64,000 bases of DNA, taken from assembly GCA_016931955.1 (NCBI GenBank), contig JAFGDV010000012.1:37510-101509 (forward strand). The letters run 5' to 3'. Made by a program: the position numbers and the translations under genes. A model generated the notes under the pieces. The model searched no databases, was not told the DNA's origin, and saw only the letters and a list, made by a program, of their open reading frames with translations. Source of the DNA: Candidatus Altiarchaeota archaeon. GTDB lineage: Archaea > Altiarchaeota > Altiarchaeia > IMC4 > QMZM01. Of this stretch, positions 3,706-34,773 are shown one piece after another. Each line of letters starts with the position of its first letter. The stretch's first letter is position 1.

Positions 3706-4848
3706 TGAGTAGATTTTTTCAATAACTTCAATACGTTTAGCCCACGTGAAATTACTGTTCACTCGTCTGACACCATTAGCACCCATTTTCTTGGGTAGGA
3801 TATCATCATCAAGCAGCTCATCAATCTTATTAGCTAACTCTATATGATTTTCAGGTCTTACCAAGAAACCTGTTTCTCCATCCCTCACTACCTCGGGTAT
3901 AGCCCCTACTTGGGCGGATACAACCGGCAGACCACATGCCATTGCCTCTGCGAGAACGATACCAAAGCTCTCTATCCTAGATGGCATGACAAATACAGAT
4001 GCCTTATTTAGTAATTGCACTATCTCCTTTTGTTGTAGAAAGCCATGGAAATTAACTTTTCTAGTTAAGCCCTCTTTTGCGCATATGTTTTTGAGGTGAC
4101 TTTTGTAGTTCTTGGCTCCTTCTCGCCCAACAATATCAAGGAATGTGTTGGGGTGATTTTTTAGGACTTCCTTGAACGCAAAAAGTAGAGTGTCTATACC
4201 TTTTTGAGGTTCCAATCGTCCCACTGTTATTATTCGCTGTTCTCGTTCTAATCCAAAGTCCTTGAAAACAAAAGTATCGACACCAGGATATGCGACTTCT
4301 ATCTTGTTTTCGTTAATCTTATAAATCTTCTTCAATTCCTCTTTACTGTATCTACTCGGAACAATTGCTTTTGTGCTTAATTTTGTGGCTTGCTTGTCTA
4401 GATGCAAATGCAATGACCATCGTATAGCCTTATGGTTAAGTATTCCCTCTTTTCTTATGTCTGTAAGAGAGTAGGGATAAAGACGTGGATAATGTACTTC
4501 ATGAACCAAGGGTTTCTTTTTTAATTTCGCCCAGAAATTGGTTAGAATCATCTCAGGTTTTGCGCCATGTATTATGTCAATGTTTCTGATATTAATCGAT
4601 TTTCTCCACCAAGAGACTGCTGAACGCACATCTAATGGCCTGAATCCAGTGAACTTAGATGCTGAATAGAATATTATGCCGTCTATCTTAGGTAGAGCAA
4701 TATACGATTGCTTGGGTAGAACCACATCCAGAGTGTGACCTCTTTTTGCAAGTTCTTCCATCGTTTTCCACAGAACAATCTCTCCACCTCCGACGCCACT
4801 TTCAGTTGGTGTGCCTGCTACGAACATCAGGATTTTATAGGTCTCCAT
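3694..4848 (-). CDS. Glycosyltransferase family 4
   Basis: 384 aa. Motif [29 protein letters not shown]. Confidence 0.75.
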
Positions 4849-21924: not shown

Positions 21925-22025
21925 CAATCTGACATAGGATACGTGTTCTACGAGATCGAGCTTGCTCTTACCGCCCCCATGCGGTCGACGAAGGGGATGG
22001 AAATAGCCGCAGACCAGGATCTCTA
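21925..22025. repeat. Degenerate copy of the 3' end of GT2 gene 28347-29063 (att-like)
   Basis: ctgacataggatacgtgttctacgagatcgagcttgctcttaccgcccc… aligns to 28375-28440. Near-identical to the copy at 26521-26590. Confidence 0.6.
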
Positions 22026-22118
22026 AGAGGATAGGGATACAGCCGCCTGAGACACTAAAAGCCCACCGAAACATCTGATAACGGAGTTGTTACTTTCTGG
22101 TGTAGCATTTTTAAACAT

Positions 22119-22140
22119 ATGTTACGTTATAATGTAACAT
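22119..22140. promoter_or_regulatory. Perfect palindrome ATGTTAC-N8-GTAACAT between a TATA-like ttttaaac and the ATG of ATPase 1
   Basis: atgttacgttataatgtaacat overlaps start codon 22139. Operator-like position on a leaderless promoter. Confidence 0.35.
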
Positions 22141-23419
22141 GGAACTACGTAAATTAGCCGAAGCCAACCCCTGGTGGCAGACCAAAAAAGTACCACAAAA
22201 CCTCCGAGGACGCGACAGACCCAAATACAGACTACTCCTAAAATCAATCACACAAAAAGAAGTCACAATAATAACCGGAGTCAGACGCTCAGGAAAAAGC
22301 ACACTAATGTACCAGACCATAGACAACCTACTCAAAGAAAAAACACCCCCAAAACAGATACTATTCGTCAACCTAGAAGACCCAAGACTCACAAACGACA
22401 CACTAGACGACATATACGAAGCATACAGAAGCGGAATCAACCCCGACCAGAAGGCACACATCTTCCTAGACGAAATACACCGAAGAGAAAACTGGGAAAA
22501 ATGGGTCAAAAGACACTACGACCTCGGCACAGACTGCAAATTCACAATCTCAGGATCATGCTCATACCTCCTGAAAAAAGAATACTCAACACTACTCACA
22601 GGCAGAAACCTCACCTTCGAAGTATTCCCCCTAAGCTTCCAAGAATACCTCACCTTCAAAGGCATCAACTTAGACGCCGAAGCACTGGAAAAAGACATCC
22701 TCCTAGAGAAACAGAGACACGAAATCCAGAAGGCGATGAACGAATACATGGAAGAAGGAGGCTTCCCAGACGCGTTCTTCAAAGAAGAAGACTTCAAGAG
22801 ACTGCTCCTAACACAATACTTCGACGACATAATATACAAAGACATCGTAGACCGCCACGAACTAAACAGCCGCAAAACAAGAGACCTTGCACTATACCTC
22901 GCATCCAACATCACCTCCCCACTATCCCTCAGAAACATCAGAAACACGCTCGGACTATCCTACGAATCAATAAAAGACTACATCACATACTACGCCGAAG
23001 CATTCCTCTTCTTCACAGTCGAACACTTCTCCTACTCCCTCAAAGAACAGAAGACACGCCCCTCAAAAGCATACTGCATAGACAACGGCCTCCGAAACGC
23101 AGTAAGCTTCAAGTTCACAAAAGACGACGGAAAACTAGCCGAAAACCTAGCCTACCTCCACCTAAGACAAAACAAAGACGACATATACTACTGGAAAGAC
23201 AAAAACGAAGTAGACTTCATAACAAAAAACCCCGACCACACACTAACCGCCATAAACGTCACATACACAGATGAAGTGGACGAAAGAGAAATAAAGTCGC
23301 TCAAAGAATTCAAACAAAAACACAAAAAAACACAAGAACTCATAATAATCACAAAAAACACCCAAAAAACACAAGAAGAAATCAAGTACATACCACTATG
23401 GAAGTGGCTGCTAGAATAG
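22139..23419 (+). CDS. COG1373-type ATPase (AAA_14 + DUF4143-like)
   Basis: N-terminal NPWW, Walker A GVRRSGKSTLM, Walker B …IFLDEIH…, C-terminal …IPLWKWLLE*. Strongly A/C-skewed coding strand. Confidence 0.7.
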   Translation: MELRKLAEANPWWQTKKVPQNLRGRDRPKYRLLLKSITQKEVTIITGVRRSGKSTLMYQTIDNLLKEKTPPKQILFVNLEDPRLTNDTLDDIYEAYRSGINPDQKAHIFLDEIHRRENWEKWVKRHYDLGTDCKFTISGSCSYLLKKEYSTLLTGRNLTFEVFPLSFQEYLTFKGINLDAEALEKDILLEKQRHEIQKAMNEYMEEGGFPDAFFKEEDFKRLLLTQYFDDIIYKDIVDRHELNSRKTRDLALYLASNITSPLSLRNIRNTLGLSYESIKDYITYYAEAFLFFTVEHFSYSLKEQKTRPSKAYCIDNGLRNAVSFKFTKDDGKLAENLAYLHLRQNKDDIYYWKDKNEVDFITKNPDHTLTAINVTYTDEVDEREIKSLKEFKQKHKKTQELIIITKNTQKTQEEIKYIPLWKWLLE

Positions 23420-23454
23420 AGACTAACCCAGATACTCCGAGGTTTAATTTACAT

Positions 23455-23481
23455 TTGCCGCCCACGCGGTCGACGAATAAA
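23455..23481. repeat. Short relic of the GT2 3'-end repeat (gccgcccacgcggtcgacgaa)
   Basis: Matches the ccgcccccatgcggtcgacgaa core of the copies at 21961 and 26540. Confidence 0.4.
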
Positions 23482-23530
23482 CAAAATTTGCCGTTACAAG
23501 GGCAAAGTTTTAAAAGAAAATTCACCCACA

Positions 23531-23576
23531 AATGCAATATTTATGCATAAATATTGCAATAGACTGCAATATTTAA
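23531..23576. promoter_or_regulatory. Nested palindromic operator-like element (three TGCAATATTT/AAATATTGCA half-sites; ATTTATGCATAAAT)
   Basis: Upstream of ATPase 2. A paralogous ~50-bp copy lies at 29132-29185. Confidence 0.35.
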
Positions 23577-23599
23577 ATACAACAACCACTATATATAAC

Positions 23600-24925
23600 A
23601 TGGACAAAAACACCCTCAGAGCAACAATAATATCACAAAAAAAAGAAACAAAAAAAATACTAAAACAAGAAAAAATCATAGAAAGAGAACTACAAAAAGA
23701 AACAGAAAAACAACTAAAAAACAACCTCATCAAGATCACCACAGGCGTCAGAAGATGCGGAAAATCAACCCTCGCCCTACAAACACTCCAAGACAAAGAA
23801 CACGCCTACATCAACTTCGACGACGAAAGACTCTACAAGATCACGACAAAAGACCTCGACACAATCCTAGAAACACTATATGAAGTATACGGAAACTTCA
23901 AATACCTCCTCCTAGACGAAATACAGAACATACCTGGATGGGAGCTATACGCAAACAGACTACAAAGACAAGGCCTCAACCTCATAGTAACCGGAAGCAA
24001 CGCAAAACTACTAAGCAAAGAACTTGCAACACACCTAACAGGAAGACACATCACACTTGAACTATACCCCTTCTCCTTCAGAGAATACCTAAGCTACCAC
24101 AAAATCAGCCCCCAAAAAGAAGACCTACAAATCGCAGAAGGCATCGGAAAAATCAAAAAACACCTAAGAGACTACATAGAAAAAGGCGGATTCCCCGAAA
24201 CATACAAAATCAAAGACAACACAAGATACCTAAAAGACCTCTACAACTCCATCATAAACCAAGACATCATAAGCAGATACAACATAAAATACGCAAACAC
24301 GCTAAGAGAGATAATCTCCTACACCATCTCAAACTACGCAAGCCCAATAACCTACAAAAAAATAAAAAACATATTCGACATAAAAAGCCAACACACAATA
24401 AAAAACTACCTCTACTACGCAGAAGAATCATACCTGATAACCCAGAGCCTACAATACACACACAAAATAAAAGAACAAACACGACTGCCCAAAAAAATCT
24501 ACGCCATAGACACAGGCCTCATAAAAGCAATAGGATTCAAGGCATCAGAAAACACCGGCAGACTAATGGAAAACCTCATCGCAATAGAACTACAGAGAAA
24601 AAAAACACAAAACCCCCTCCTAGAAATATACCACTGGAGAGACTACCAAAAAAGAGAAGTCGACTTCGCAGTCAAAGAAGGCCTAAAAGTAAAGGAACTA
24701 ATCCAGGCATGCTACGACATCGAAGACCCAAAAACAAAGGAGAGGGAAGAAAAAGCATTGATAAAAGCCGGGAAAGAACTCAGATGCAAAAACCTCAAAA
24801 TAATAACCTGGGACCACGAAGAAACAGGGAGAATAGAGTATATCCCACTATGGAAGTGGCTGCTGCAGCCGACGGGTTTTGTCCCGGCGACTGAGGAGAA
24901 TGTAGTGCCTAACCCAACAAATTAG
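23600..24925 (+). CDS. COG1373-type ATPase paralog
   Basis: Start chosen at MDKNTLRA (23600). Walker A GVRRCGKSTLA. C-terminal …IPLWKWLL, then a read-through tail. Confidence 0.65.
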   Translation: MDKNTLRATIISQKKETKKILKQEKIIERELQKETEKQLKNNLIKITTGVRRCGKSTLALQTLQDKEHAYINFDDERLYKITTKDLDTILETLYEVYGNFKYLLLDEIQNIPGWELYANRLQRQGLNLIVTGSNAKLLSKELATHLTGRHITLELYPFSFREYLSYHKISPQKEDLQIAEGIGKIKKHLRDYIEKGGFPETYKIKDNTRYLKDLYNSIINQDIISRYNIKYANTLREIISYTISNYASPITYKKIKNIFDIKSQHTIKNYLYYAEESYLITQSLQYTHKIKEQTRLPKKIYAIDTGLIKAIGFKASENTGRLMENLIAIELQRKKTQNPLLEIYHWRDYQKREVDFAVKEGLKVKELIQACYDIEDPKTKEREEKALIKAGKELRCKNLKIITWDHEETGRIEYIPLWKWLLQPTGFVPATEENVVPNPTN

Positions 24926-24964: not shown

Positions 24965-26311
24965 CTAAGGCAACCCCAATAAAGAGAAAAGCCACGCCGG
25001 AATATAATATATTACTATACTATCTGTTCCCCCTCTCCTCAGCTGATTCCTCGTCACCAAAACCGCCTCACCTACACCGTATTTTTCGCAGAATTTAGTT
25101 AGGCTACGAATGTCTTTCTTGTTAATGTAGGTCTGATACTTGACTTCGACAGGCAGCAGCCTTTTGTCCGCTAATACAATATCCACCTCATCCTTCTGCG
25201 GCGTACGCCAGAAAGATATCTTCTGCAGACTACCCACTATCTGAGACTCTATGAGATGACCTGCTATCCCACCACCTTCAAGCATGCTAAAGGGTTGATC
25301 CAATAACGCCAACACAATAGATGGGTGGACTATGAACTGTTTCTTGCTTGCACGCACCTGCTTAGATACGTTGACAGAGTAGTTGTAGGCCACCTTAATC
25401 AGAAAAGATTTCTCTAGTAGGCTTACATACTCTGCCGCCTGATTTCGGTTAATCCTGAGGTTGCCTGCTATGTTCACCAACTCAAAGAGTTGGGCGTTCG
25501 CCGCAGCCAGCAGCCTGAGCAATTCGTAGACCACGTTCTCATTCCCCCTGCTAGCCCGACTTATGTCTTCGACGGTTTTCTCTATCACCGACTCCCGAAT
25601 ATACTTTTTAATGTATTCTTCGTCGTCTTCGTCAAACAGCTCAGGGAAGGCGCCCCTCTCCAAGTATTGGATGAACAGTTCCATGTATCTAGCCCTATTC
25701 GCAGCGAAATGCAGGTCATATTCTCGTATCATGTTTTCGTTCAAGGCTATCTCGTCCCTAAGACCAAAGTATCTCACAAACTCCCTGAAGGAAAGTACTG
25801 GCAGATGAAAGGATAGTATCCTGCCGGCAAGCGTTTCCCTGTATTTCCTCAGCTCAAGAGACGATGACCCGGAGACAAAAATCTTCAGGTTCTCTTCGGT
25901 GTCATAGACAGTCTTAAGGAGATCAGGGAAGTTAGGAAGCTTCTGCACCTCGTCGAGGAAAAGATACCTCATACCTTTCCCATCAGAAAACTCCAGAAAG
26001 TAGTTGATTAGATCCCATGCCACCTCATACCTCTGGAAGTCTATGTCGTCGAAGGAGATATAGCAGACGTTCTTTTCTTCGGTCTTCACCAGAAGCTTCT
26101 TTATCATCTGCTTGAGTAAGACAGTCTTGCCTACGCGCCGCAGACCCACGACTGCCAGAATCTGCCTATTTTGACAGTATTTGAGTAGGTCTCCCATGAG
26201 GTCTCTCTCAAACTCTGGAGTAGTGAAGTCTTTTTTCTCCCACCACGGGTTCTGCCTGAAAAGCAGTCTACTGTGTCTTTCGTCCATCGTATTATCTATT
26301 AGGAAGAACAT
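24965..26311 (-). CDS. COG1373-type ATPase paralog
   Basis: …QNPWWEKKDF…GLRRVGKTVLL…YIPAWLFSLL. Confidence 0.65.
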   Translation of the reverse strand: MFFLIDNTMDERHSRLLFRQNPWWEKKDFTTPEFERDLMGDLLKYCQNRQILAVVGLRRVGKTVLLKQMIKKLLVKTEEKNVCYISFDDIDFQRYEVAWDLINYFLEFSDGKGMRYLFLDEVQKLPNFPDLLKTVYDTEENLKIFVSGSSSLELRKYRETLAGRILSFHLPVLSFREFVRYFGLRDEIALNENMIREYDLHFAANRARYMELFIQYLERGAFPELFDEDDEEYIKKYIRESVIEKTVEDISRASRGNENVVYELLRLLAAANAQLFELVNIAGNLRINRNQAAEYVSLLEKSFLIKVAYNYSVNVSKQVRASKKQFIVHPSIVLALLDQPFSMLEGGGIAGHLIESQIVGSLQKISFWRTPQKDEVDIVLADKRLLPVEVKYQTYINKKDIRSLTKFCEKYGVGEAVLVTRNQLRRGGTDSIVIYYIPAWLFSLLGLP

Positions 26312-26415: not shown

Positions 26416-26600
26416 TTATCTCCCCAAAAAACCAGGGAAAGCATTCAAACACTACGAATAAAAAAAGAACTGGAAAAACTGAAACATATAGTCTACATCA
26501 CAGAAGAAGAAAAAAACTAAAGGCCGAGCTTGCTCTTACCGCCCCCATGCGGTCGACGAAGGAGATGGAGATGGCCGCAGACCCTCAACTGCCCCAGACC
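26416..26600. repeat. Direct repeat: ~105-bp intergenic segment plus a degenerate GT2 3'-end copy (partner at 28246-28440)
   Basis: tccccaaaaaaccagggaaagcattcaaacactacgaataaaaaaag… aligns with 28246-28350. gagcttgctcttaccgcccccatgcggtcgacgaagg aligns with 28406-28440 and is near-identical to 21961-22000. Confidence 0.65.
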
Positions 26601-26710: not shown

Positions 26711-28093
26711 ATGACAATCATCGACTCCCTGAAAGCCCAAAACGAATGGTGGAAGACCGGGAAAGTACCCACAGCACTCCTAAAAAAAACCAAAAGAGAA
26801 GAATACAAGACAGCAGAAAAACTCCTCAAAGAAGAAAGAATAACCGCAATAACCGGACCACGCAGAACCGGAAAAACAACCCTCCAATACCAGCTCATAC
26901 ACCACCTCCTCCAAGAAACCGAACCCAACAAGATACTCTACATATCCATGGACGACCCATCACTAAGACCCCACACACAAAACCTCCTACAAGAAATACT
27001 GGAAACCTACTACAGAGAAATCCTCCTCGAAGAAAAAAGAAACACACAAGTCCACGTCTTCATAGACGAAATACACTTCCACACAAACTGGGAACAATGG
27101 CTGAAAAAATACTACGACCAAAGATACCCAATAAAATTCACGATAACAAGCTCATCCTCAGCCCACCTATCACAGAAGTCAAAAGAAAGCCTCGTCGGAC
27201 GAATCATCGAAATACTACTACTCCCCCTAAGCTTCAGAAGCTACCTCGCCCTCACAGGAAAAAACCAGCTCACAGAACACTACAACAAACTCAGCCTCGA
27301 AACAATAGACGCAGACAAAAGATTCCAGCTGCTAAAACACGAAGAAGAAGCACGGATCATGTTCTCAAAATACCTCCTATACGGAGGACTGCCCGAGTCC
27401 ATAAAAACAGGAGAAATACACCTATGGCAGGAAAAACTAATATCAGACGTCCTAAGAAAAGTTATATACAGAGACATCACAGGACTCTACGACGTCAGAA
27501 CACCCACAAAACTCGAAGACCTCTTCGTCCACCTCACATACAACACCAGCAAAACATTCTCATACACCTCCCTCTCCCAAAACCTCGGCATAAGCACAGA
27601 AGCCATAATAAACTACACACGCTACCTCCAGGAATCCTACCTCATAGGCGAACTACGACTCCACACAAAAAGCATCGAAAAAAGCCTCCGAGCCAACAGA
27701 AAATACTTCATAATGGACTGCGGACTACAGAACGCCATAACAAAAACCACCGACCTAACCGAAGCCAACACAGGCCCACTAATAGAATCCACAATCGAAA
27801 AACACCTCTACGCATACGCCAAAAAAGAAAACCACAACCTACACTACTGGAGAGAAAAAGAAGAAGTAGACATAATACTAGACACCAAAAAAAAGACACT
27901 ACCAATAGAGGTAAAATACAAAAACAAGATAAAAAAAGAAGACATGCGAGGACTACTCAAATTCATGGACAAATACAAAACAGACAAAGGATACATGATA
28001 ACCAAAGACCTCCTCCAAAAACAAAAAATCAACGGAAAAGAAATCCAACTAATACCAGCATGGCTATTCCTACTAGCAATACCCGCCGCCTAA
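26711..28093 (+). CDS. COG1373-type ATPase paralog
   Basis: …QNEWWKTGKVP…GPRRTGKTTLQ…LIPAWLFLLAIPAA. Confidence 0.65.
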   Translation: MTIIDSLKAQNEWWKTGKVPTALLKKTKREEYKTAEKLLKEERITAITGPRRTGKTTLQYQLIHHLLQETEPNKILYISMDDPSLRPHTQNLLQEILETYYREILLEEKRNTQVHVFIDEIHFHTNWEQWLKKYYDQRYPIKFTITSSSSAHLSQKSKESLVGRIIEILLLPLSFRSYLALTGKNQLTEHYNKLSLETIDADKRFQLLKHEEEARIMFSKYLLYGGLPESIKTGEIHLWQEKLISDVLRKVIYRDITGLYDVRTPTKLEDLFVHLTYNTSKTFSYTSLSQNLGISTEAIINYTRYLQESYLIGELRLHTKSIEKSLRANRKYFIMDCGLQNAITKTTDLTEANTGPLIESTIEKHLYAYAKKENHNLHYWREKEEVDIILDTKKKTLPIEVKYKNKIKKEDMRGLLKFMDKYKTDKGYMITKDLLQKQKINGKEIQLIPAWLFLLAIPAA

Positions 28094-28245
28094 AAAAAAA
28101 AGACTGAGACAACAGCCTGCTTCTTTCCCGCCTGAACATATAAAAAGATCACTATTAGCATGATCATGGTTATACAATTCAGAAACCAAGTGACTGAACC
28201 CTAAGACCTGAAAGAAATAATAGGAAACAACAACGAATCAGCTTA

Positions 28246-28440
28246 TAATCTATCCCCAAAAAAAAACCAGGGAAAGCATTCGAACACTACGAATAAAAAA
28301 AGATCCAGGAAAAAACCAGCCTGCATCACAGAAGAAGAAAAAAAAACTACTTCAGATACAGGCGGAGACAATGCCTGACATAGGATAAGTGTTCTCCGAG
28401 ATTAAGCTTGCTCTTACCGCCCTCTCGGTCAATGAAAGTG
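28246..28440. repeat. Resident copy of the direct repeat (intergenic ~105 bp plus the genuine 3' end of the GT2 gene)
   Basis: See 26416-26600. Confidence 0.65.
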
Positions 28441-29063
28441 ATCGGGACCTCCTTGACTCGGGAATAGCGGCCGCGAACCAGTATTTCTAAGAGGATCTTG
28501 AAGCCGACCGGGTTAAGGACGACGCCGTCAATAACTTCTCTGCGGAAGAAGAAGAAACCAGAGACCGGATCCCTGACAGAGGTGAGGGGGCGAGCCAAGA
28601 GGACAGCACCCCGAGAGGTTAGACGACGACGAAGAGGCCAATTCTGGATACAACCGCCACGGACATAGCGGCTGCCGACGGAGACATCGGCTTCGCCCCG
28701 CAAAATAGGAGCCACCAAAGCAGGAATAGCGTCTAGGGGATGAGAGAAGTCGGCGTCCATGACGCCAAATATGCCGCCCGAAGCCTGAGAGAAGCCGGCG
28801 AGGACGGCAGAGGAAAGACCTAATTTGCCGGAGCGGACGATGATTTTAAGATCGGGGTAAGGGCTTTGAAGAGAACGGACGACTTCGGCGGAGCCATCTG
28901 GGCTGTTGTCGTCTACGATGATCAGTTCACCGCGGAGGTCGTTGCGGGAAAAAACCTTGAAGAAGGCAGGAATAAGCTTGGATAAGTTCTCGCGTTCATT
29001 ATAGGTGGGTACGACGACTGAGACCCTGGAGTTCTCCAAGGGAGGGAAAGAAGTCCTATGCAT
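28347..29063 (-). CDS. GT2 dolichol/polyprenol-phosphate mannosyltransferase-like (Dpm1-type, soluble form)
   Basis: …VSVVVPTYNERENL…VDDNSPDGS…DADFSHP… GC-rich (core-like) composition, unlike its neighbours. Confidence 0.7.
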   Translation of the reverse strand: MHRTSFPPLENSRVSVVVPTYNERENLSKLIPAFFKVFSRNDLRGELIIVDDNSPDGSAEVVRSLQSPYPDLKIIVRSGKLGLSSAVLAGFSQASGGIFGVMDADFSHPLDAIPALVAPILRGEADVSVGSRYVRGGCIQNWPLRRRLTSRGAVLLARPLTSVRDPVSGFFFFRREVIDGVVLNPVGFKILLEILVRGRYSRVKEVPITFIDREGGKSKLNLGEHLSYVRHCLRLYLK

Positions 29064-29131
29064 GATAAAGGATATAAACAGATACGGAAATAAATAAGTT
29101 TGCTGTTATGAGGTGGGGATAATCTACCCAC

Positions 29132-29185
29132 GGATGCAATAGTTATGCATAGATATTGTAATAGACTGCAGTATTTGGATACGAT
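29132..29185. repeat. Copy of the ATPase-2 upstream palindromic element
   Basis: ggatgcaatagttatgcatagatattgtaatagactgcagtatttggatac is ~85% identical to 23531-23580. Confidence 0.45.
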
Positions 29186-29209
29186 AATAAAAGATCACTG
29201 AGGGATAAT

Positions 29210-29245
29210 GGGAGGGGCTGCTAGGATAGAGGAGTTGATACCCCA
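29210..29245. repeat. Relic of the ATPase 3'-terminal motif plus the left 21-bp direct repeat of the AbiE-like module
   Basis: tgggaggggctgctaggatagag matches tggaagtggctgctagaatagag (23401-23423) at 20 of 23 positions. gatagaggagttgatacccca recurs at 31174-31193. Confidence 0.5.
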
Positions 29246-29307
29246 GTAGTCGTCGAGGACAAAGGAGAAGAAAGCCCCACGCATTTTACGGAACATACAC
29301 GGTAATG

Positions 29308-29350
29308 TACTAAAAATAGTAAAAAAAATGATATTTTACTAAAAATAGTA
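29308..29350. promoter_or_regulatory. Two TACTA-N4-TAGTA palindromes 29 bp apart next to a TATA-like tttatagg, upstream of the AbiEi-like gene
   Basis: tactaaaaatagta at 29308-29321 and 29337-29350. ATG at 29379. Confidence 0.4.
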
Positions 29351-29378
29351 TTTATAGGTGAAAAACACATAACATAAC

Positions 29379-30221
29379 ATGCTAGAACTGATCTACGGGA
29401 CAAAAACAAAGACCAGGATACTGGAAGAGCTCGCAACAGCAGGAAAACCAAAGACCAGAAAAGAACTAATAGAGCTGACAGGATGCGGCACCAGGGGAGT
29501 ATACGAGCAGACAGAGGAACTAATAACCCTAGGCATAGTCAAAGAAACCAAGAAAGGCTGGAAAAAACTAGAGCTAAACCCAGAACACCCACTATACCAG
29601 GACATCAAAAACACGGCACTCGCAGCAATAGACTACAAAAAAAACCTCATAAAAAACCTCCTCCAGACAATAGACCAAATACTAGAAGACGACTACTATA
29701 TCGGATTCTACACAGCAGCCACAAAAAAAATCACACCAATCGACTACACACCAGAGAAACACGTATACAAGGTACTGGACACAGAATACGAAAAAAAAAT
29801 AAAGAAAATCAAAACATACGACAAACTAAGGGAAATAGACATACAAAAAGAGAAAAAAGGGTTGATTAAGGCAGTATTCCTAAAATGCCAGAAAATCCCG
29901 GAAGACGTGACAAGAGAAGAAATACAAAACCAGGAAGTGTGGATAGCAAGCACGGAGAGGGGTATAGTAGAATGCTTCACCCCAGAAAACAAATACTTCA
30001 CCAGATACGGAAGCTGCCTGGCCCTGCTACAAAACAAAATAGAAAACACAATAGACGAAAAACAACTACTGAAAATAGCAGGAGAACTCAACATAAAAAA
30101 AGAACTAGTTAAAGTCATGGGCAGCTTCAACCACCACCTCAAAAAAAGACTATTCAACGCAGAACCCAACACAGAAGAGATCAAAGAAGTCAAACAGGCG
30201 ATAAACACGGTATTAGGATGA
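29379..30221 (+). CDS. AbiEi-like antitoxin / transcriptional regulator (N-terminal wHTH)
   Basis: TRILEELATAGKPKTRKELIELTGCGTRGVYEQTEELITLGIV winged-helix. Stop overlaps the start of the downstream NTase by 4 bp. Confidence 0.5.
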   Translation: MLELIYGTKTKTRILEELATAGKPKTRKELIELTGCGTRGVYEQTEELITLGIVKETKKGWKKLELNPEHPLYQDIKNTALAAIDYKKNLIKNLLQTIDQILEDDYYIGFYTAATKKITPIDYTPEKHVYKVLDTEYEKKIKKIKTYDKLREIDIQKEKKGLIKAVFLKCQKIPEDVTREEIQNQEVWIASTERGIVECFTPENKYFTRYGSCLALLQNKIENTIDEKQLLKIAGELNIKKELVKVMGSFNHHLKKRLFNAEPNTEEIKEVKQAINTVLG

Positions 30222-31177
30222 AGACAACATACACGACAGAAGAAAAAGAAGGGATCCTAGGCATAATAGAAACCTGGGGGAGAGAACAGATAACCCAAGA
30301 CGTCTTCAGAAAAATACAACTACAGACAGGCATACCTTCAGGACTGATAGAGACAACATTCTGGCACATAGACACACTCTATCAGCTGAAAAAACTCGAA
30401 AAACCACCCATATTCAAAGGAGGAACCTGCGTACAATGCTACATCCCAGCAGGCCTGCAGAGAGCATCAAACGACCTAGACTTCAATTCAAGGATAGCCA
30501 ACCCAGCCACCATAAGGGAGCAGATAAAAAAACTAAACAAAAAACTGCTAAACAAAGGAAACGCCACACAGATAAAAAAATACGGCGAAAGAATAAGCTA
30601 TGGAACATTCGACTACCAGCTAAAAGACGAAATATCCGGTGTTATAACATTCAACAGGAGAATGCCCTCCCGCCTTGGAGAATACGTCAAAGCAGGCGAA
30701 CTAGAGGTTCAGGCAAAAAACATGAAAATCCAGGTAAACTACAAACACGCCTGGATGCCCGCAATAAAGACGATAGACAAAAAACCAAGATTCTTCATAC
30801 TCGAACACCAAAAAATGAAAGGATTCACCTACCCAAGCTCAAGCCTGAACGACCTAATCGCCGACAAAATACTTGCAACAACAAAAGAAACGGGGAGAGA
30901 ACGATTCAAAGACGTATACGACCTGATGACTCTGTTCATGCAAAAATACGAGAAAAAACAGATACTCGAGAAACTGGAGAGGATACTGGAGAAGAAAGGG
31001 CAACAACCAGAGACCACGATAAAATCCTCGGCAACGAATATCGGGAGATTCACAGAAAAAAGCCTCGAAGCACAAGGATTCAAAAGCCTCGTATGCAAAG
31101 ACGGCAGAAAACTCATAGAAAACTGGGAAACCAACTGCTTAAAGCTAACAGAGAAGATGAACTCGTTGCTGAGATAG
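30218..31177 (+). CDS. AbiEii-like nucleotidyltransferase toxin (DUF1814 / Pol-beta NTase fold)
   Basis: FKGGTCVQCYIPAGLQRASNDLDFNS matches the hGG…DhDh NTase motif of AbiEii-family toxins. Translationally coupled to the upstream wHTH gene. Confidence 0.55.
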   Translation: MKTTYTTEEKEGILGIIETWGREQITQDVFRKIQLQTGIPSGLIETTFWHIDTLYQLKKLEKPPIFKGGTCVQCYIPAGLQRASNDLDFNSRIANPATIREQIKKLNKKLLNKGNATQIKKYGERISYGTFDYQLKDEISGVITFNRRMPSRLGEYVKAGELEVQAKNMKIQVNYKHAWMPAIKTIDKKPRFFILEHQKMKGFTYPSSSLNDLIADKILATTKETGRERFKDVYDLMTLFMQKYEKKQILEKLERILEKKGQQPETTIKSSATNIGRFTEKSLEAQGFKSLVCKDGRKLIENWETNCLKLTEKMNSLLR

Positions 31178-31194
31178 AGGAGTTGATCCCATGG
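31174..31194. repeat. Right 21-bp direct repeat of the AbiE-like module (gatagaggagttgatcccatg)
   Basis: Matches 29225-29245 at 20 of 21 positions. Overlaps the toxin stop codon. Confidence 0.5.
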
Positions 31195-31354
31195 AAGACC
31201 CCTTGAGGAGGAGGCTTCTCGATTAATCTTGATTAAAGATCTCATGGTATAACCTTTAACTTCAATAGGGAGGTAGGGGTAGGGTGATATGCGTATTTAT
31301 ATACTTATGTTCACTATAGTATACAAAATATGAGGAATTTGTTCACCGAATAAG

Positions 31355-32641
31355 ATGGAGCACAGAAAAATCATAATACAATGGAAAGAATACACACCAC
31401 CGAAGACACAACCCAGAGAAGTGAACATCGACCCCACAACAGACTTCATCACCACAATAACAGGCCCAAGAAGAGCAGGCAAAACATACCTCTGCTACCA
31501 GCTAATGAACCACCTAATAGACAAAGGAACCCCCCGAGAAAACATCCTATACGTGAACTTCGAAGACGAAAAACTCATAGGGGCTAAAGCAGCAGACCTC
31601 GAAAAACTGATGAACACATTCCAAGAACTAACAGACACCAACCCAGAACACAACACCTACCTCTTCCTCGACGAAATACAGAACGTCAAAGACTGGGACG
31701 CATGGATAAGGAGAATACACGACACCCAAAAAAACGTGAAACTAATACTCACAGGCTCATCCTCCAAGATGCTAAGCCGAGAAGTCACAACAAAACTACG
31801 CGGCAGAATACTAAACCACGAAGTATACCCCCTAAGCTTCAAAGAATACCTCACATGGAAAAACACCCCATACAACCTAAAAACACTAACAGAAAGCAGA
31901 GACAGAATCGAAGTAAAAAAACAATACAATGAATACCTGACAAACGGAGGCTACCCCACAATAGCACTCAACCAAGCACCCAGAGAACAGATACTCCAAA
32001 GCTACTACGAATCAATGATATTCAAGGATGTGGTAGAAAGACACAACATCAAAGACGTCAAAAAACTGCGCATACTCGCAAAACTACTATTCGAATCCAC
32101 ATCAAAAGAGATGTCCTACAACAGGCTAGCAAACAAACTCAAATCCCTCGGATTCACAGCAAGCAAAAACACCATAATAGAACACATCAGCCACTTCGAA
32201 GACGCATACCTATTCTTCCAGAACATGAAACACGAGTACTCCATCACAAAACGGATGGGTGCGATAAAAAAGATCTACTGCATAGACAACGGACTACTCA
32301 ACACAGTCAGCTTCAAATTCGCAGAAGACACCGGAAAACTGATGGAAAACCAAGTCTACATAGAACTAAAACGCAGAAACAAACAAGTCTACTACCACAA
32401 AGACAAACACGAATGCGACTTCCTCACACAAGAAAAAAACAAGATCACATCAGCCATACAAGTAACCCACACACTAAACGACGAAAACGAAGACCGAGAA
32501 ATAAACGGCCTACTTGAAGCCATGAGAACCCACAACCTACAAGATGGAACCATCCTCACCTTCGAACAAGAAGAGACAAGAAAAAAAGACGACAAAACAA
32601 TACGGATCACACCAGTCTGGAAGTGGCTGCTGGAGACATGA
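31355..32641 (+). CDS. COG1373-type ATPase paralog
   Basis: …ITGPRRAGKTYLCY…FLDEIQN…ITPVWKWLLET*. Confidence 0.65.
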   Translation: MEHRKIIIQWKEYTPPKTQPREVNIDPTTDFITTITGPRRAGKTYLCYQLMNHLIDKGTPRENILYVNFEDEKLIGAKAADLEKLMNTFQELTDTNPEHNTYLFLDEIQNVKDWDAWIRRIHDTQKNVKLILTGSSSKMLSREVTTKLRGRILNHEVYPLSFKEYLTWKNTPYNLKTLTESRDRIEVKKQYNEYLTNGGYPTIALNQAPREQILQSYYESMIFKDVVERHNIKDVKKLRILAKLLFESTSKEMSYNRLANKLKSLGFTASKNTIIEHISHFEDAYLFFQNMKHEYSITKRMGAIKKIYCIDNGLLNTVSFKFAEDTGKLMENQVYIELKRRNKQVYYHKDKHECDFLTQEKNKITSAIQVTHTLNDENEDREINGLLEAMRTHNLQDGTILTFEQEETRKKDDKTIRITPVWKWLLET

Positions 32642-32711
32642 GATCGAAAGAAAAACAGACCAGAGAGTATCTTTGTTGACCAAAATTTATAAATAATGGA
32701 CAACATAGATG

Positions 32712-32788
32712 TAAAGTGATAACATGGGACCGCGAAGAAAAAGGGAGAATAGAATACATACCACTATGGAAGTGGCTGCTGGAATAAA
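32712..32788 (+). pseudogene. 3'-terminal fragment of a COG1373 ATPase gene (ATPase-2-like)
   Basis: ataacatgggaccgcgaagaaaaagggagaatagaatacataccactatggaagtggctgctggaataa is ~88% identical to 24799-24866. No upstream ORF. Confidence 0.5.
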
Positions 32789-32984
32789 GAGGTTATTTCA
32801 TAGATGGCTGCTTGAGGCAGAAAGAGAAGAGCCCAGAAGAGAGCAAGGTAGTGCCCTGGAAAAGGCAAGATATAAAGGAGGTGAGGGGAAATAGGGGATA
32901 TAGTAGGGGCTCCGATGAATGCATCCCAACGAGGATAGAGAGAAAAGCTTTTAATCCCATATCGACAGAATACTTTAAGAGAAG

Positions 32985-33185: not shown

Positions 33186-34060
33186 CGCTGAGAAGAGAAT
33201 TAAAGAAAAAATTCACTTATACGGGAGAACTAGAACCCGGGAAGATTTCAGAGTTAAAGGAGATAGTAGAGGAAGCCAGGAAACTGAAGAAGTATGTTAC
33301 GGCATGTAATGTAACAGACAACCCGCAAGCTTATGCGTACATAAGCAGCCTGGCGGCGTCGTATATGATACAGGAGAAGGCCGGGATGGAGGCCATATAT
33401 CAGCTGACTTGCAGAGACAGGAATCGATTAGCGCTGACTTCAGAGCTGCTGGGGGCGGCGGCGCTGGGGATAAAGAATGTGCTGGCGTTGACTGGAGACT
33501 ACACTACGTTGGGGGATATGCCTGAGGCGAAGCCTGTATTTGATTTAGATGCGTGCCGGCTAGTGCATATGATCAAGGAGATGAACGAGGGAAGAGATAT
33601 AAAGGGGAACCGAATAGAACCTAGGACGGAATTCTTTATCGGAGTCGCAGCGAACCCCAACGCTATACCATTAGAACCGGAGATACTGAAGCTGGAGAAG
33701 AAAGAAAAAGTGGGGGCGGAATTCGTGCAGACTCAGGTAGTGTATGAGATGGAGATAGTAGAGAATTTCCTGGAGGCAACGAAGAACGTGGAGATACCGA
33801 TACTGATCGGGGTGTTCCCGCTGAGATCATACGGGGTAGCGGAGTACTTCGACAAGAACGTGCCCGGAGTCAAGGTACCCGAAAAACTGTTGAAGGAACT
33901 GAAGGAGATAAAGGAGGCTGGGGGGGCTCGGGAGGAATACGATAAAGTCAATGAAAGATTCTTTTCCGGACTAATAAAAGGGATAAAGAAGACTGATGCG
34001 AGGGGATGCCATATAATGGCGGTGAATTACTCGGAGATTGTGGAGAAGCTGGTCGTCTAA
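33173..34060 (+). CDS. metF: Methylenetetrahydrofolate reductase-like (MetF)
   Basis: 295-aa TIM-barrel MTHFR signature (…VTDNPQAYAYISSLAASYMIQEKAGMEAIYQLTCRDRNRLAL…ALTGDY…). Confidence 0.65.
   Translation: MHEMTLRRELKKKFTYTGELEPGKISELKEIVEEARKLKKYVTACNVTDNPQAYAYISSLAASYMIQEKAGMEAIYQLTCRDRNRLALTSELLGAAALGIKNVLALTGDYTTLGDMPEAKPVFDLDACRLVHMIKEMNEGRDIKGNRIEPRTEFFIGVAANPNAIPLEPEILKLEKKEKVGAEFVQTQVVYEMEIVENFLEATKNVEIPILIGVFPLRSYGVAEYFDKNVPGVKVPEKLLKELKEIKEAGGAREEYDKVNERFFSGLIKGIKKTDARGCHIMAVNYSEIVEKLVV
34001..34053. repeat. 53-bp direct repeat (genuine 3' end of metF), left copy
   Basis: aggggatgccatataatggcggtgaattactcggagattgtggagaagctggt. Partner at 34721-34773 with 2 mismatches. Confidence 0.7.
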
Positions 34061-34398
34061 GTTTTTTCCATAAGGATCTTTTTGATGATGGGTCTGACCA
34101 CTGGTATGTCCTCCTTCACGACAAGCCACACCCTCTTAGGGTCCATCCCAAAGTAGAAATGGATAGCCTTATCCCTCATACCCGCTATATCCCGCCAAGG
34201 CACTTCAGGATGCTTATCCTTCACAGGAGAAGGCACGTTTTTTGCCGCTTCGCCTATGACCTCGACACATCGGATGACGGCTTATTGAGTCTTCTCATCC
34301 CCTAAAAACACGTCATAAGACATATCTCTGATGAATTCCTCGGCAAGCTCCATGTTCTCCAACATATCCTTCAGATAGATTGACACGTTCCTTTTCAT
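34057..34398 (-). pseudogene. HEPN (DUF86) toxin gene with an in-frame TAA stop
   Basis: Minus-strand translation gives MKRNVSIYLKDMLENMELAEEFIRDMSYDVFLGDEKTQ*AVIRCVEVIGEAAKNV…RDKAIHFYF… (Rx4HxY HEPN motif). The stop is at 34282-34284. Start overlaps the MNT stop by 2 bp (34396-34397). Confidence 0.5.
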
Positions 34399-34688
34399 AC
34401 ATAAACCGCCTCCTCTAGGACTCTATCCCGCAACTCAGCGCGAAGATCCTTTTTAGGAACAACATCAGCCTTAACGCCGAGAACATCACCCAAGAAATTC
34501 TCCAAGCCAACAATCCTGAGAAGACTCACCGGCTCCTCGAATTCGACGAGGAAGTCAACATCACTTGACTCATCCTGCTCACCCCTGACATAAGACCCAA
34601 AAACACCGATACTCTTAACCATAAACCTCCTCGAAAGCTCAGCCCTATGCTTAGACAAAGCAGTCCTAATGTCACCAAGGGTTACCAT
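34395..34688 (-). CDS. Minimal nucleotidyltransferase (MNT) antitoxin
   Basis: GVFGSYVRGEQDESSDVDFLVEF, the Pol-beta NTase motif of MNT antitoxins. 97 aa. Confidence 0.7.
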   Translation of the reverse strand: MVTLGDIRTALSKHRAELSRRFMVKSIGVFGSYVRGEQDESSDVDFLVEFEEPVSLLRIVGLENFLGDVLGVKADVVPKKDLRAELRDRVLEEAVYV

Positions 34689-34720: not shown

Positions 34721-34773
34721 AGGAGATGCCATATAATGGCGGTGAATTACTCGGAGATTGTGGAAAAGCTGGT
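34721..34773. repeat. 53-bp direct repeat, right copy (duplicated metF 3' end, retains a stop)
   Basis: aggagatgccatataatggcggtgaattactcggagattgtggaaaagctggt. Confidence 0.7.

What the first reader, a model, noticed from the sequence alone, without database searches (positions are those of the whole stretch)
29210..31194. AbiEi/AbiEii-like wHTH + nucleotidyltransferase module flanked by 21-bp direct repeats and carrying its own double-palindrome operator
The pair 29379-30221 (wHTH regulator) and 30218-31177 (Pol-beta NTase with GG…DLDF motif) overlaps by 4 bp, which is the type IV TA / abortive-infection AbiE architecture. Two TACTAaaaaTAGTA palindromes 29 bp apart (29308-29350) sit at the promoter. 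That matches AbiEi autorepression through paired inverted repeats. The module is bracketed by GATAGAGGAGTTGAT(A)CCC direct repeats (29225-29245 and 31174-31194), so it looks like an inserted cassette.
Basis: partly seen in the sequence, partly recalled or inferred. Interest (0 to 1): 0.55.

Follow-up and report, generated by a model that had tools for sequence, protein, structure and literature searches.

The report
Archaeal AbiE-like toxin-antitoxin cassette
This is a two-gene AbiE-type toxin-antitoxin (abortive-infection) module with its own conserved double operator, sitting in a defence island of an uncultured Altiarchaeota archaeon; it is a divergent but essentially ordinary example of a known system, and its short flanking repeats are leftovers of a neighbouring ATPase gene's end, not a classical transposon footprint.

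Summary
Two ORFs (29379-30221, 30218-31177) overlap by ATGA. Two identical TACTAAAAATAGTA palindromes lie 29 bp apart next to a TATA box. A 15-nt exact repeat (21/24 when extended) brackets the pair.

The downstream protein is a true DUF1814/AbiEii nucleotidyltransferase: Pfam 61 bits, with motifs I, II and IV and the phospho-acceptor serine all invariant.

The double operator (TTACTA-N4-TAGTAA twice, exactly 29 bp apart, abutting the TATA box) recurs in all 10 distinct related loci. These range from Altiarchaeota to Methanoperedens and Thermoplasmata.

The flanking repeat is not chance (0 of 5000 shuffles). No empty site was found.

Related AbiE modules elsewhere, and a HepT/MntA pair 3 kb away, are each bounded by an in-frame pseudo-copy of the neighbouring gene's 3' end. 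Cassette-like insertion is therefore plausible but unproven.

Verdict: a divergent variant of a known system, of moderate-to-low interest.

The parts
29118..29187 (+). Relic copy of the palindrome-bearing promoter/5' region of a DUF4143 ATPase gene (compare 23516-23585)
   Evidence: 81-88% identity to 23516-23585 / 23524-23574, E 1.6e-11.
29208..29245 (+). Relic 3' end of a DUF4143 ATPase gene (reads W-E-G-L-L-G-stop, stop at 29227-29229). It contains the left direct repeat, 29219-29242.
   Evidence: 21/24 identity to the ATPase tail at 23398-23421 and 22/29 to the relic tail at 32766-32794. The exact 15-mer is at 29225-29239.
29307..29322 (.). Distal operator palindrome GTACTAAAAATAGTAA (consensus TTACTA-N4-TAGTAA)
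   Evidence: Conserved in 10 distinct orthologous loci, 29 bp upstream of the proximal site.
29336..29351 (.). Proximal operator palindrome TTACTAAAAATAGTAT. It covers the expected BRE position and abuts the TATA box.
   Evidence: Same conservation. In the fetched loci the motif is found almost only at this promoter position in AbiE-like loci, and in none of the 80 control loci.
29351..29356 (+). TATA box TTTATA, 22 nt before the ATG, which implies a leaderless or near-leaderless mRNA
   Evidence: Read from the sequence. A TATA-like element sits at -27 to -32 in most orthologous loci. Its function is inferred.
29379..30221 (+). Antitoxin/autoregulator gene: N-terminal wHTH, a long helix, and an AbiEi-type (NTase-like fold) C-terminal domain. 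A conserved loop with low model confidence spans residues 113-125 (ITPIDY).
30218..31177 (+). Toxin gene: DUF1814/AbiEii nucleotidyltransferase
   Evidence: PF08843 E 2.2e-16, 61 bits against a cut-off of 22.5. PADLOC AbiEii E 5.6e-14. Invariant in 21 homologues: K67 G68 G69, S84, D86, D88, K217, R227, D232, D235. The motifs align to JHP933 and MenT4.
31167..31190 (+). Right direct repeat. It covers the last codons of the toxin gene (L-L-R-stop), in the same register as the ATPase-tail L-L-G/E-stop, plus 13 nt downstream.
   Evidence: 21/24 identity to 29219-29242. Alignment with the ATPase tails.

Best explanation
The locus is an AbiE-type toxin-antitoxin / abortive-infection operon of an Altiarchaeota archaeon, lying in a defence island.

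Shown:
- The second gene encodes a DUF1814/AbiEii nucleotidyltransferase with all catalytic motifs intact.
- The first gene encodes a two-domain protein: a winged helix plus a C-terminal domain with the AbiEi fold.
- The two genes are translationally coupled (ATGA), and the pairing is conserved across archaeal lineages.
- Two copies of the palindrome TTACTA-N4-TAGTAA, 29 bp apart and abutting the TATA box, are conserved with the pair.

Inferred by analogy with S. agalactiae AbiE and M. tuberculosis MenAT:
- The toxin adds nucleotides to tRNA 3' ends and so stops translation.
- The antitoxin binds the toxin through its C-terminal domain and a conserved flexible loop. This drives auto-phosphorylation of the serine two residues before the DxD motif (S84 here), which switches the toxin off.
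- The antitoxin's winged helix binds the two palindromes, occludes BRE/TATA and represses its own leaderless operon.
- Loss of antitoxin supply, for example during virus infection, frees the toxin.

Origin of the repeats: the module most likely entered as a small cassette at the 3' end of a DUF4143 ATPase gene. That gene has since been mostly deleted, leaving its promoter relic and tail on the left and a second tail copy fused to the toxin's stop codon on the right. This last step is the least certain.
For: Toxin:
- PF08843 at 61 bits. 117 homologues all carry PF08843, and NCBI names this protein an AbiEii/AbiGii family protein.
- Motif I (G68 G69), S84, motif II (D86, D88) and motif IV (K231-D232-x-x-D235) are present. 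All of these except K231, which is nearly invariant, are invariant in the 21-sequence alignment. They align to JHP933 and MenT4. The spacings G69 to S84 (15) and G69 to D86 (17) equal G50 to T65 and G50 to D67 of S. agalactiae AbiEii (PMC3985639; 10.64898/2026.01.19.700257).

Antitoxin:
- Relatives hit HTH_11, MarR, IclR and HVO_A0114 wHTH models.
- Residues 113-125 have pLDDT below 50, yet T112, A113, A114, I118, T119, P120, I121, D122, Y123 and P125 are invariant.

Pairing: the same two-gene order, with the 4-bp overlap, is seen in L002, L007, L009, L096, L097 and L100. L003 has the order without the overlap.

Operator: the spacing is 29 bp in 10 of 10 distinct loci. The motif is absent from the 80 unrelated control loci.

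Cassette:
- The repeat is beyond chance in its placement, 0 of 5000 shuffles.
- The left copy is continuous with an ATPase-tail relic, and an ATPase promoter relic lies 20 nt upstream of that.
- The module sits in a different genomic context in every lineage.
- Analogous modules are bounded by in-frame pseudo-copies of the neighbouring gene's 3' end in L012 (124 nt), L014 (73 nt) and at the window's HepT/MntA pair (53 nt).
Against: - No experiment exists for any archaeal AbiE.
- The antitoxin fails every curated AbiEi sequence model. It is 85 residues longer than S. agalactiae AbiEi.
- Foldseek against the PDB returned only wHTH regulators among its listed hits, and none at E <= 0.001.
- The structure alignment was shallow, only 7 sequences.
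- The operator layout differs from the characterised AbiEi operators, so the stoichiometry and even the sign of regulation are inferred.
- On the cassette step: the repeat is only 24 nt, no empty site was found, no recombinase gene is recognisable in the 64-kb window (read by eye only), and five of the nine orthologous module loci tested (L003, L007, L009, and L002 and L100 with only borderline 14-15-nt matches) show no clear flanking repeat.
Confidence: 0.75

Rival explanations
1. The flanking repeats are not an insertion footprint. They are debris from recombination and deletion among the five paralogous DUF4143 ATPase genes of the island, and they happen to lie on both sides of the AbiE pair.
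For: Both copies belong to the ATPase 3'-end sequence family. More tail copies lie nearby: the real tail at 32608-32641 and a relic at 32713-32790. Orthologous modules L003, L007 and L009 have no flanking repeat. No empty site was found.
Against: The right copy starts exactly where homology between toxin orthologues fades, and it supplies the toxin's stop codon. The placement is significant, 0 of 5000 shuffles. The same layout, a cassette bounded by a neighbouring gene's 3' end, recurs independently in L012, L014 and at metF. There the distal copies diverged under purifying selection, which in-situ debris would not do.
Confidence: 0.35
2. The pair is what remains of a larger integrated mobile element that targeted the gene's 3' end. 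The integrase and other genes were deleted, and the addictive toxin-antitoxin pair survived between the two attachment-site copies.
For: Direct repeats spanning a stop codon with a short identical core are typical of integrase attachment sites in gene 3' ends (established knowledge). AbiE stabilises mobile elements (PMC3985639, PMC11062541). In L012 and L014 the distal gene-end copies look like imported orthologous ends.
Against: In four independent cases the insert holds only the TA pair, or only ATPase genes, with no other relic ORFs. That is unusually clean for random decay. No integrase fragment was seen.
Confidence: 0.25
3. The two genes are a transcription factor and a nucleotidyltransferase with a non-toxic housekeeping or regulatory role, not a toxin-antitoxin or defence module.
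For: Some DUF1814 relatives, such as ANT(2'') and LnuA-like enzymes, are not toxins. These appear among the fold matches. S. agalactiae AbiE gave no phage protection in E. coli (10.64898/2026.01.19.700257).
Against: - The toxin carries the AbiEii-specific motif IV and the phospho-acceptor serine.
- The partner has the AbiEi fold.
- Distribution is patchy and the genomic context varies.
- The module lies among five PDC-S01 ATPases and a HepT/MntA pair.
Confidence: 0.08
4. The palindromes are basal promoter elements (their A/T-rich cores resemble TATA boxes) or sites for a different host factor, not the antitoxin's operator.
For: The cores (AAAA, AATT, TTTT) are TATA-like. No binding data exist.
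Against: The conserved part is the arms TTACTA/TAGTAA, while the core varies and includes CTTA and TAAG. The sites travel with the antitoxin gene into unrelated genomes and contexts, always 29 bp apart. They diverge in the one lineage (Thermoplasmata, L011) whose predicted recognition helix also diverges.
Confidence: 0.1

Closest known systems
AbiEi/AbiEii of Streptococcus agalactiae and Lactococcus lactis (AbiE; classed type IV, and type VII in a 2026 preprint)
   Different: - The antitoxin is 280 aa rather than 195. It has a long connecting helix and matches no Pfam AbiEi model.
- The operator is two direct copies of a 16-bp palindrome, 29 bp apart, at an archaeal BRE/TATA promoter. In S. 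agalactiae it is two mutually inverted 23-bp repeats 3 bp apart at a bacterial -35/-10 promoter.
- The host is an archaeon, and nothing has been tested experimentally.
MenA/MenT systems of Mycobacterium tuberculosis (MenT1, MenT3, MenT4; Rv2827c-Rv2826c)
   Same: The toxins share the DUF1814 fold and motifs: the MenT4 sequence motif aligns, and MenT1 and MenT4 are fold matches. Rv2827c is a wHTH plus C-terminal-domain antitoxin that binds four repeats arranged as two pairs. That is closer to the four half-sites seen here.
Archaeal AbiE systems catalogued in defence surveys (PMC12988326; PMC3632139)
   Same: Detected through the AbiEii component. They are enriched in DPANN and related archaea, form archaeal clades of their own, and are found in defence islands next to PDC-S01 ATPases.
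   Different: The papers read here do not mention this antitoxin family, its operator or the cassette boundaries.
Integrase attachment sites in gene 3' ends, and integrase-less att-flanked elements (CIMEs) or integron cassettes
   Same: Short cargo segments bounded by direct repeats that include the end of a neighbouring gene. Several cassettes sit in tandem at one site (the pseudo-copies of the GT gene's 3' end).
   Different: No integrase, attC-like hairpin or integron platform was identified. The repeat lengths are very unequal, 24 to 124 nt. The resemblance is a lead only.

Membership tests
AbiEii / DUF1814 nucleotidyltransferase toxins (PF08843) | Match to the family profile above its curated threshold | tested here: met
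   PF08843 E 2.2e-16, 61 bits against a cut-off of 22.5, residues 59-270. Eighteen PADLOC AbiEii models hit, best E 5.6e-14.
AbiEii / DUF1814 nucleotidyltransferase toxins (PF08843) | Pol-beta NTase motif I (hGG/S) and motif II (DhD) at the AbiEii spacing | tested here: met
   K67-G68-G69 and D86-L87-D88 are invariant in 21 homologues. G69 to D86 is 17 residues, the same as G50 to D67 in S. agalactiae (PMC3985639). The motifs align with JHP933 and MenT4.
AbiEii / DUF1814 nucleotidyltransferase toxins (PF08843) | DUF1814-specific motif IV (+DxxD) | tested here: met
   K231-D232-V-Y-D235. D232 and D235 are invariant and K231 is nearly invariant. The motif aligns with the JHP933 sequence RDLFD.
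AbiEii / DUF1814 nucleotidyltransferase toxins (PF08843) | Ser/Thr phospho-acceptor two residues before motif II (T65 in AbiEii, S78 in MenT3) | tested here: met
   S84 is invariant. It aligns to the S of JHP933 (FSEDLDF) and of MenT4 (FSTDLDF). Actual phosphorylation cannot be tested with these tools.
AbiEii / DUF1814 nucleotidyltransferase toxins (PF08843) | Growth inhibition through nucleotidyl transfer (to tRNA 3' ends in the MenT toxins; the AbiEii target is not established in the papers read) | not testable with these tools
   Requires expression and biochemical assays.
AbiEi antitoxins (COG5340; Pfam AbiEi families) | Match to a curated AbiEi sequence model | tested here: not met
   No AbiEi family in Pfam at E <= 1 or in NCBIfam. 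Ten distant relatives also lack AbiEi hits. The profile finds no PDB AbiEi by sequence. The only signal is PADLOC AbiEi at E 5e-4 on residues 158-250.
AbiEi antitoxins (COG5340; Pfam AbiEi families) | Two-domain architecture: N-terminal winged helix plus the AbiEi-type C-terminal domain | tested here: met
AbiEi antitoxins (COG5340; Pfam AbiEi families) | Encoded immediately upstream of a DUF1814 toxin gene and co-transcribed with it | tested here: met
   A 4-bp overlap here and in L002, L007, L009, L096, L097 and L100. Exception: in L004-L006 the antitoxin homologue is followed by a HicB-like gene instead.
AbiEi antitoxins (COG5340; Pfam AbiEi families) | Autoregulation through repeats in its own promoter | tested here: inconclusive
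   Paired palindromes are conserved with the gene in 10 of 10 loci. The layout differs from the 23-bp IR1/IR2 of S. agalactiae (PMC7319586). Binding and repression are untested.
AbiEi antitoxins (COG5340; Pfam AbiEi families) | Conserved flexible loop needed for toxin binding and neutralisation (D85-E86-I87 in AbiEi) | tested here: inconclusive
   A low-confidence loop at residues 113-125 carries the invariant I118-T119-P120-I121-D122-Y123. Its equivalence to the AbiEi loop was not established by superposition.
Mobile cassette with target-site or attachment-site repeats | Direct repeats at both boundaries beyond chance | tested here: met
   A 15-nt exact match, 21/24 when extended. None of 5000 shuffles reached 15 nt.
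Mobile cassette with target-site or attachment-site repeats | An empty site with a single repeat copy in a related genome | tested here: inconclusive
   A genome scan with the GT protein found no relative closer than 56% identity. Exact look-ups of the GT and ATPase5 proteins return only the same arrangement. Nothing was found in the viral contigs.
Mobile cassette with target-site or attachment-site repeats | A recombinase or transposase that could move it | not tested
   None was recognised by eye among the window's ORFs of 150 aa or more. No profile search was run on all ORFs.

The most novel reading that the evidence does not exclude
The whole 22-35 kb island may be assembled from small defence cassettes: the AbiE pair, the HepT/MntA pair and single DUF4143 ATPase genes. 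Each cassette would be inserted at the 3' end of an 'anchor' gene and bounded by an in-frame pseudo-copy of that gene's end that was imported from a diverged lineage, with no integrase in the cassette. That would point to a cassette-accretion mechanism in archaea that I did not find described, acting in trans or through a DNA intermediate. The near-total lack of T-ending codons in these cassette genes could be a trace of that intermediate.
Probability: 0.15. Interest if true: 0.75.

Novelty: new variant of a known kind. Interest (0 to 1): 0.38.

Why it matters
AbiE is among the commonest anti-virus systems and is enriched in small-genome archaea, yet no archaeal example has been studied. This locus offers a clean, testable archaeal case:
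- a toxin with every catalytic residue and the phospho-acceptor serine;
- a previously unannotated antitoxin family that is AbiEi-like only by fold;
- an operator whose sequence, 29-bp spacing and position against the TATA box are conserved across phyla, which makes repression of an archaeal promoter by a TA antitoxin directly testable.

The repeat pattern around this and neighbouring cassettes may also show how archaeal defence islands are built.

Tried and rejected
- Sequence search of the antitoxin profile and of the toxin against PDB chains gave nothing useful for the antitoxin and only RqcH noise for the single toxin sequence. The toxin profile reached JHP933 and MenT4.
- The empty-site search failed. 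The genome-contig scan with the GT protein returned only distant glycosyltransferases, 56% identity at best. Exact look-ups of the GT and ATPase5 proteins returned the same 7.5-kb Logan contig.
- The metagenome scan with the antitoxin profile gave six more loci, all about 40% identical. They were useful for the operator but not for the insertion site.
- Viral contigs hold no toxin relative and no double-operator match.
- There are no tRNA genes in the window, and no Rfam family in the 18-36 kb stretch that was scanned, so there is no tRNA-type attachment site.
- I considered and dropped a regional strand-specific mutation bias as the cause of the T-poor coding strand. The two minus-strand genes inside the island and the promoter-bearing spacers are ordinary.
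- The 266-nt repeats around the L097 module contain a CRISPR leader and repeats and lie next to a cas1/cas2 relic. I do not count them as an insertion footprint.
- I first guessed T70 as the phospho-acceptor. The published spacing (G50, T65, D67) points to S84 instead.
Full report
**Source and setting.** The antitoxin and toxin proteins are identical to NCBI entries from a Candidatus Altiarchaeota metagenome-assembled genome (locus tag JW778_02130 for the antitoxin; contig of 114 kb). NCBI calls them 'hypothetical protein' and 'nucleotidyl transferase AbiEii/AbiGii toxin family protein'.

The pair lies in a defence island at roughly 22-35 kb. The island holds:
- five DUF4143/AAA_14 ATPase genes, at 22139-23419, 23543-24925, 24965-26311 (minus strand), 26711-28093 and 31355-32641. 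All five hit Pfam AAA_14 and/or DUF4143, and the 31355-32641 protein, the only one scanned against PADLOC, hits the candidate defence family PDC-S01 at E 2e-118;
- a family-2 glycosyltransferase (GT) gene, 28347-29063, minus strand;
- a HepT/MntA pair, 34057-34688, minus strand.

Core metabolic genes follow (metF-like, mch). There are no tRNA genes in the window, and no Rfam match in the 18-36 kb stretch that was scanned.

**Checking the observation.** TACTAAAAATAGTA occurs exactly twice in 64 kb, 29 bp apart. The exact 15-mer GATAGAGGAGTTGAT occurs only at 29225-29239 and 31173-31187. It extends without gaps to 21/24 at 29219-29242 and 31167-31190. In 5000 dinucleotide-preserving shuffles of the two boundary regions, no exact match exceeded 14 nt.

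**The toxin.**
- The 319-aa protein matches Pfam AbiEii (PF08843) at 61 bits against a threshold of 22.5. It also matches 18 PADLOC AbiEii models.
- A database search returned 117 archaeal relatives, from Methanoperedens, ANME, Thermoplasmata and Altiarchaeales. All carry PF08843.
- In a 21-sequence alignment spanning 29-64% identity, these residues are invariant: K67, G68, G69, T70, S84, D86, L87, D88, F89, D212, K217, R227, D232 and D235.
- A profile of that alignment aligns the GG...S-x-DLDF block and the +DxxD block to H. pylori JHP933 and to M. tuberculosis MenT4.
- These blocks correspond to motifs I, II and IV defined for S. agalactiae AbiEii (PMC3985639).
- The spacings G69 to S84 and G69 to D86 equal G50 to T65 and G50 to D67. 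S84 is therefore the counterpart of the T65 phospho-acceptor reported in the 2026 preprint 10.64898/2026.01.19.700257.

The toxin is a full member of the family and looks catalytically competent.

**The antitoxin, by sequence.** The 280-aa protein has no significant hit in Pfam or NCBIfam. PADLOC gives only weak hits: AbiEi at E 5e-4 on residues 158-250, and PDC-M05A at E 3e-4 on the N-terminus. The family is small:
- seven close relatives in the 5.8-billion-protein collection;
- 45 cluster representatives at E <= 1e-3 among 1.84 billion.

Distant members hit generic winged-helix models (HTH_11, MarR_2, IclR, HVO_A0114) at their N-termini and nothing else.

**The antitoxin, by fold.** An AlphaFold2 model (pLDDT 83.5, pTM 0.68) shows a winged helix (residues 1-66), a long helix (73-102) and an alpha/beta C-terminal domain.

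The protein therefore works like an AbiEi, and has its architecture, but it is not a member of the curated AbiEi sequence families. A stretch of low model confidence (113-125) is nevertheless almost invariant (TAA..ITPIDY.P). This recalls the conserved flexible loop that AbiEi and MenA3 need for neutralisation (preprint, section 10), but I did not establish that the two loops are equivalent.

**Conservation of the pair.** The antitoxin-then-toxin order with a 4-bp overlap recurs in:
- another Altiarchaeota MAG (L002, 65% identity);
- Methanoperedens (L007, L008, L096, L099);
- other metagenomic contigs (L009, L097, L100).

A JGI metagenome (L003) has the same gene order but with a 75-nt gap instead of the overlap. 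In Thermoplasmata (L011, L012) a more distant antitoxin-toxin pair is separated by a small extra ORF. The flanking genes differ in every lineage: polysaccharide synthesis genes, SNF2/SWIM genes, a CARF protein, a CRISPR locus. One lineage (L004-L006) has the antitoxin homologue followed by a HicB-like gene instead of a toxin. A more distant Altiarchaeales toxin (L013, L014, 38% identity) is paired with a 195-aa partner that lacks the winged helix.

**The operator.** In all 10 non-redundant loci, the 130 nt upstream of the antitoxin gene contain two sites fitting TTACTA-N4-TAGTAA, start-to-start spacing exactly 29 bp. The proximal site ends at or within 2-3 nt of a TATA-like element, and the ATG lies 42-50 nt after the start of the proximal site.
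- The arms are conserved, while the 4-nt core varies: AAAA, AATT, TTTT, CTTA, TAAG, TAAA.
- In Thermoplasmata both the sites (TTACTT-N4-AGGTAA and CTCCTG-N4-CAGTAA) and the predicted recognition helix have diverged.
- The strict pattern occurs at this promoter position in 14 of the fetched AbiE loci and in none of the 80 unrelated GT control loci fetched. The one exception is a single extra site in L007/L008.

I read this as the antitoxin's operator. Because the proximal site covers the expected BRE position and abuts the TATA box, repression by occluding TFB and TBP is the likely mode. This is an inference.

The layout differs from characterised AbiEi operators. S. agalactiae has two mutually inverted 23-bp repeats 3 bp apart, each bound by a monomer. 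Rv2827c has four repeats in two pairs (PMC7319586). The short distance from TATA box to ATG implies a leaderless mRNA.

**The flanking repeats.** The left copy is not anonymous sequence.
- Positions 29208-29231 match the last codons and stop of the ATPase gene at 23398-23421 (21/24). Positions 29208-29236 match a relic ATPase tail at 32766-32794 (22/29).
- Twenty nucleotides upstream, 29118-29187 is an 81-88% copy of the palindrome-bearing region in front of the ATPase gene at 23543.
- The left side therefore looks like an ATPase gene that has lost its body, leaving a promoter relic plus a tail.
- The right copy supplies the toxin's last codons (S-L-L-R-stop), in the same register as the ATPase W-L-L-E/G-stop. 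It lies where toxin orthologues stop being alignable.

It is not met as to position, because the copies do mark the module's edges.

I could not find an empty site. No close relative is present in the genome collection, and exact-protein look-ups return only the same arrangement.

**Parallels that bear on the cassette idea.** I compared 800 nt upstream and downstream of each related module.
- L012 (Thermoplasmata): the module lies between the 3' end of an epimerase gene and a 124-nt copy of it, 85% identical.
- L014 (Altiarchaeales): the module lies between the tsaD 3' end and a 73-nt copy, 81% identical.
- In the window itself, the HepT/MntA pair lies between the metF 3' end (34001-34053) and a 96% copy (34721-34773).

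Each distal copy keeps the reading frame and its own stop codon. In L014, 9 of 11 differences fall at third codon positions and cause only 2 amino-acid changes. In L012, 26 differences cause 9 changes against 17.8 expected. In both cases 0 of 5000 simulations did as well. These copies therefore diverged as functional gene ends in different lineages and were then brought together. That is what attachment sites of integrating elements look like, and it is not what in-situ duplication followed by decay would produce.

To the left of the AbiE pair, three pseudo-copies of the GT gene's 3' end (about 26525-26600, 23430-23490 and 21929-22050) divide the ATPase genes into three blocks. No insert contains an integrase, and none was recognised by eye elsewhere in the window.

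Against generality: L003, L007 and L009 show no flanking repeat, and L002 and L100 show only borderline 14-15-nt matches. The long repeats around L097 contain CRISPR leader and repeat sequence next to a cas1/cas2 relic, so they probably have another cause.

**Composition.** The AbiE genes and four ATPase genes share an extreme codon usage. Only 36 of 2354 codons end in T (for example TTT 1 against TTC 73, and CAT 0 against CAC 53). A3 is about 0.5 and C3 is 0.3-0.44. Neighbouring core genes, the two minus-strand genes inside the island and the promoter spacers are ordinary. The L002 orthologue shows a milder form, and L003 and L007 show none. This sets the cassette genes apart from the core genome. 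I have no tested explanation for it.

**Mechanism and comparison.** The best-supported reading has three parts.
- A DUF1814 NTase toxin blocks translation by adding nucleotides to tRNA 3' ends. [quoted passage not shown]
- An AbiEi-fold antitoxin neutralises the toxin, probably by inducing auto-phosphorylation of S84.
- The same antitoxin represses the operon through the double palindrome.

The toxin is a family member. The antitoxin is AbiEi-like by fold and by context but fails the sequence-model test. AbiE systems are already known to be common in archaea, including DPANN lineages, and to sit beside PDC-S01 ATPases (PMC12988326). The system as such is therefore not new. What may be new, since I did not find it in the papers read, is the antitoxin family, the archaeal operator design and the repeat-bounded cassette pattern.

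**Verdict.** This is a divergent variant of a known system, with moderate-to-low interest for the module itself. The cassette-boundary pattern and the codon bias are the parts worth a further look.

Noticed in passing
window 34001-34053 and 34721-34773, flanking 34057-34688 (- strand): A HepT/MntA (HEPN/minimal NTase) pair lies between the 3' end of the metF-like gene and a 53-nt, 96% identical, in-frame copy of that end with its own stop codon. The HepT ORF is only 59 aa (profile positions 83-116 of 120), so it is probably truncated.
   Followed up: partly
L012 217-340 / 2548-2671; L014 3270-3342 / 4954-5026: AbiE-like modules in a Thermoplasmata MAG and an Altiarchaeales MAG are bounded by the upstream gene's 3' end and an in-frame pseudo-copy of it (124 nt at 85%, 73 nt at 81%). 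The copies differ mostly at synonymous sites (0 of 5000 simulations did as well). They therefore look like imported orthologous gene ends, like attachment sites, and no integrase lies inside the insert.
   Followed up: partly
window 21929-22050, 23430-23490, 26525-26600 versus 28347-28422 (and 26426-26518 versus 28261-28346): Three pseudo-copies of the C-terminal coding end of the GT gene, one of them with its downstream 86 nt, separate the DUF4143 ATPase genes into blocks. It looks as if cassettes had been added one after another at the same site.
   Followed up: partly
window 22139-23419, 23600-24925, 26711-28093, 29379-31177, 31355-32641: Six + strand island genes almost lack T-ending codons: 36 of 2354, with T3 0.00-0.03, A3 about 0.5 and C3 0.3-0.44. 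Neighbouring core genes, the two - strand island genes and the promoter spacers are ordinary. As a side effect the other forward frames stay open for hundreds of codons (for example 26746-28107 and 30436-31206). Unexplained.
   Followed up: partly
window 18474-21665: The large S-layer-like or surface-protein gene shows a steady fall of T at third codon positions, from 0.25 at its 5' end to 0.03 at its 3' end. It also contains internal 51-66-nt repeats at 20792-21019.
   Followed up: no
window 23533-23558 (and imperfect copy around 29126-29176): A perfect 26-bp palindrome (ATGCAATATTTATGCATAAATATTGCAT region) sits in front of the ATPase gene at 23543/23600. A degraded copy lies upstream of the AbiE module. 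It may be a regulatory site of the ATPase genes.
   Followed up: no
window 32713-32790: An isolated in-frame relic of an ATPase C-terminus (KVITWDREEKGRIEYIPLWKWLLE-stop, about 90% identical to the tail at 24797-24865) lies 70 nt after the intact ATPase gene 31355-32641. A 26-nt palindrome (32669-32710) lies between them.
   Followed up: no
L004 6001-7120, L005, L006: In one lineage the antitoxin homologue (59% identical, with both operator sites) is followed by a HicB-like antitoxin gene instead of an AbiEii toxin. This is either an orphan or re-partnered regulator or a consequence of the contig ending there.
   Followed up: no
L003 7849-8059; L012 2392-2552: Tandem repeat arrays start right at or after the toxin stop codon in two unrelated loci: 36 nt x3 followed by 20 nt x5 in L003, and 23 nt x about 7 in L012.
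   Followed up: no
L097 1191-1456 / 3899-4164, ORF 3607-3885: A Methanoperedens-like AbiE module sits inside a CRISPR locus. It is flanked by 266-nt, 95% identical repeats carrying what look like leader and CRISPR-repeat sequences, and a cas1/cas2-like relic ORF lies just downstream of the toxin gene.
   Followed up: no
L007 10782-10796 (= L008 6289-6303): A third exact TTACTA-N4-TAGTA site lies about 10 nt upstream of a PRiA4_ORF3-domain gene, 3.2 kb downstream of the Methanoperedens module. It may be a second target of the antitoxin, or it may be chance.
   Followed up: no
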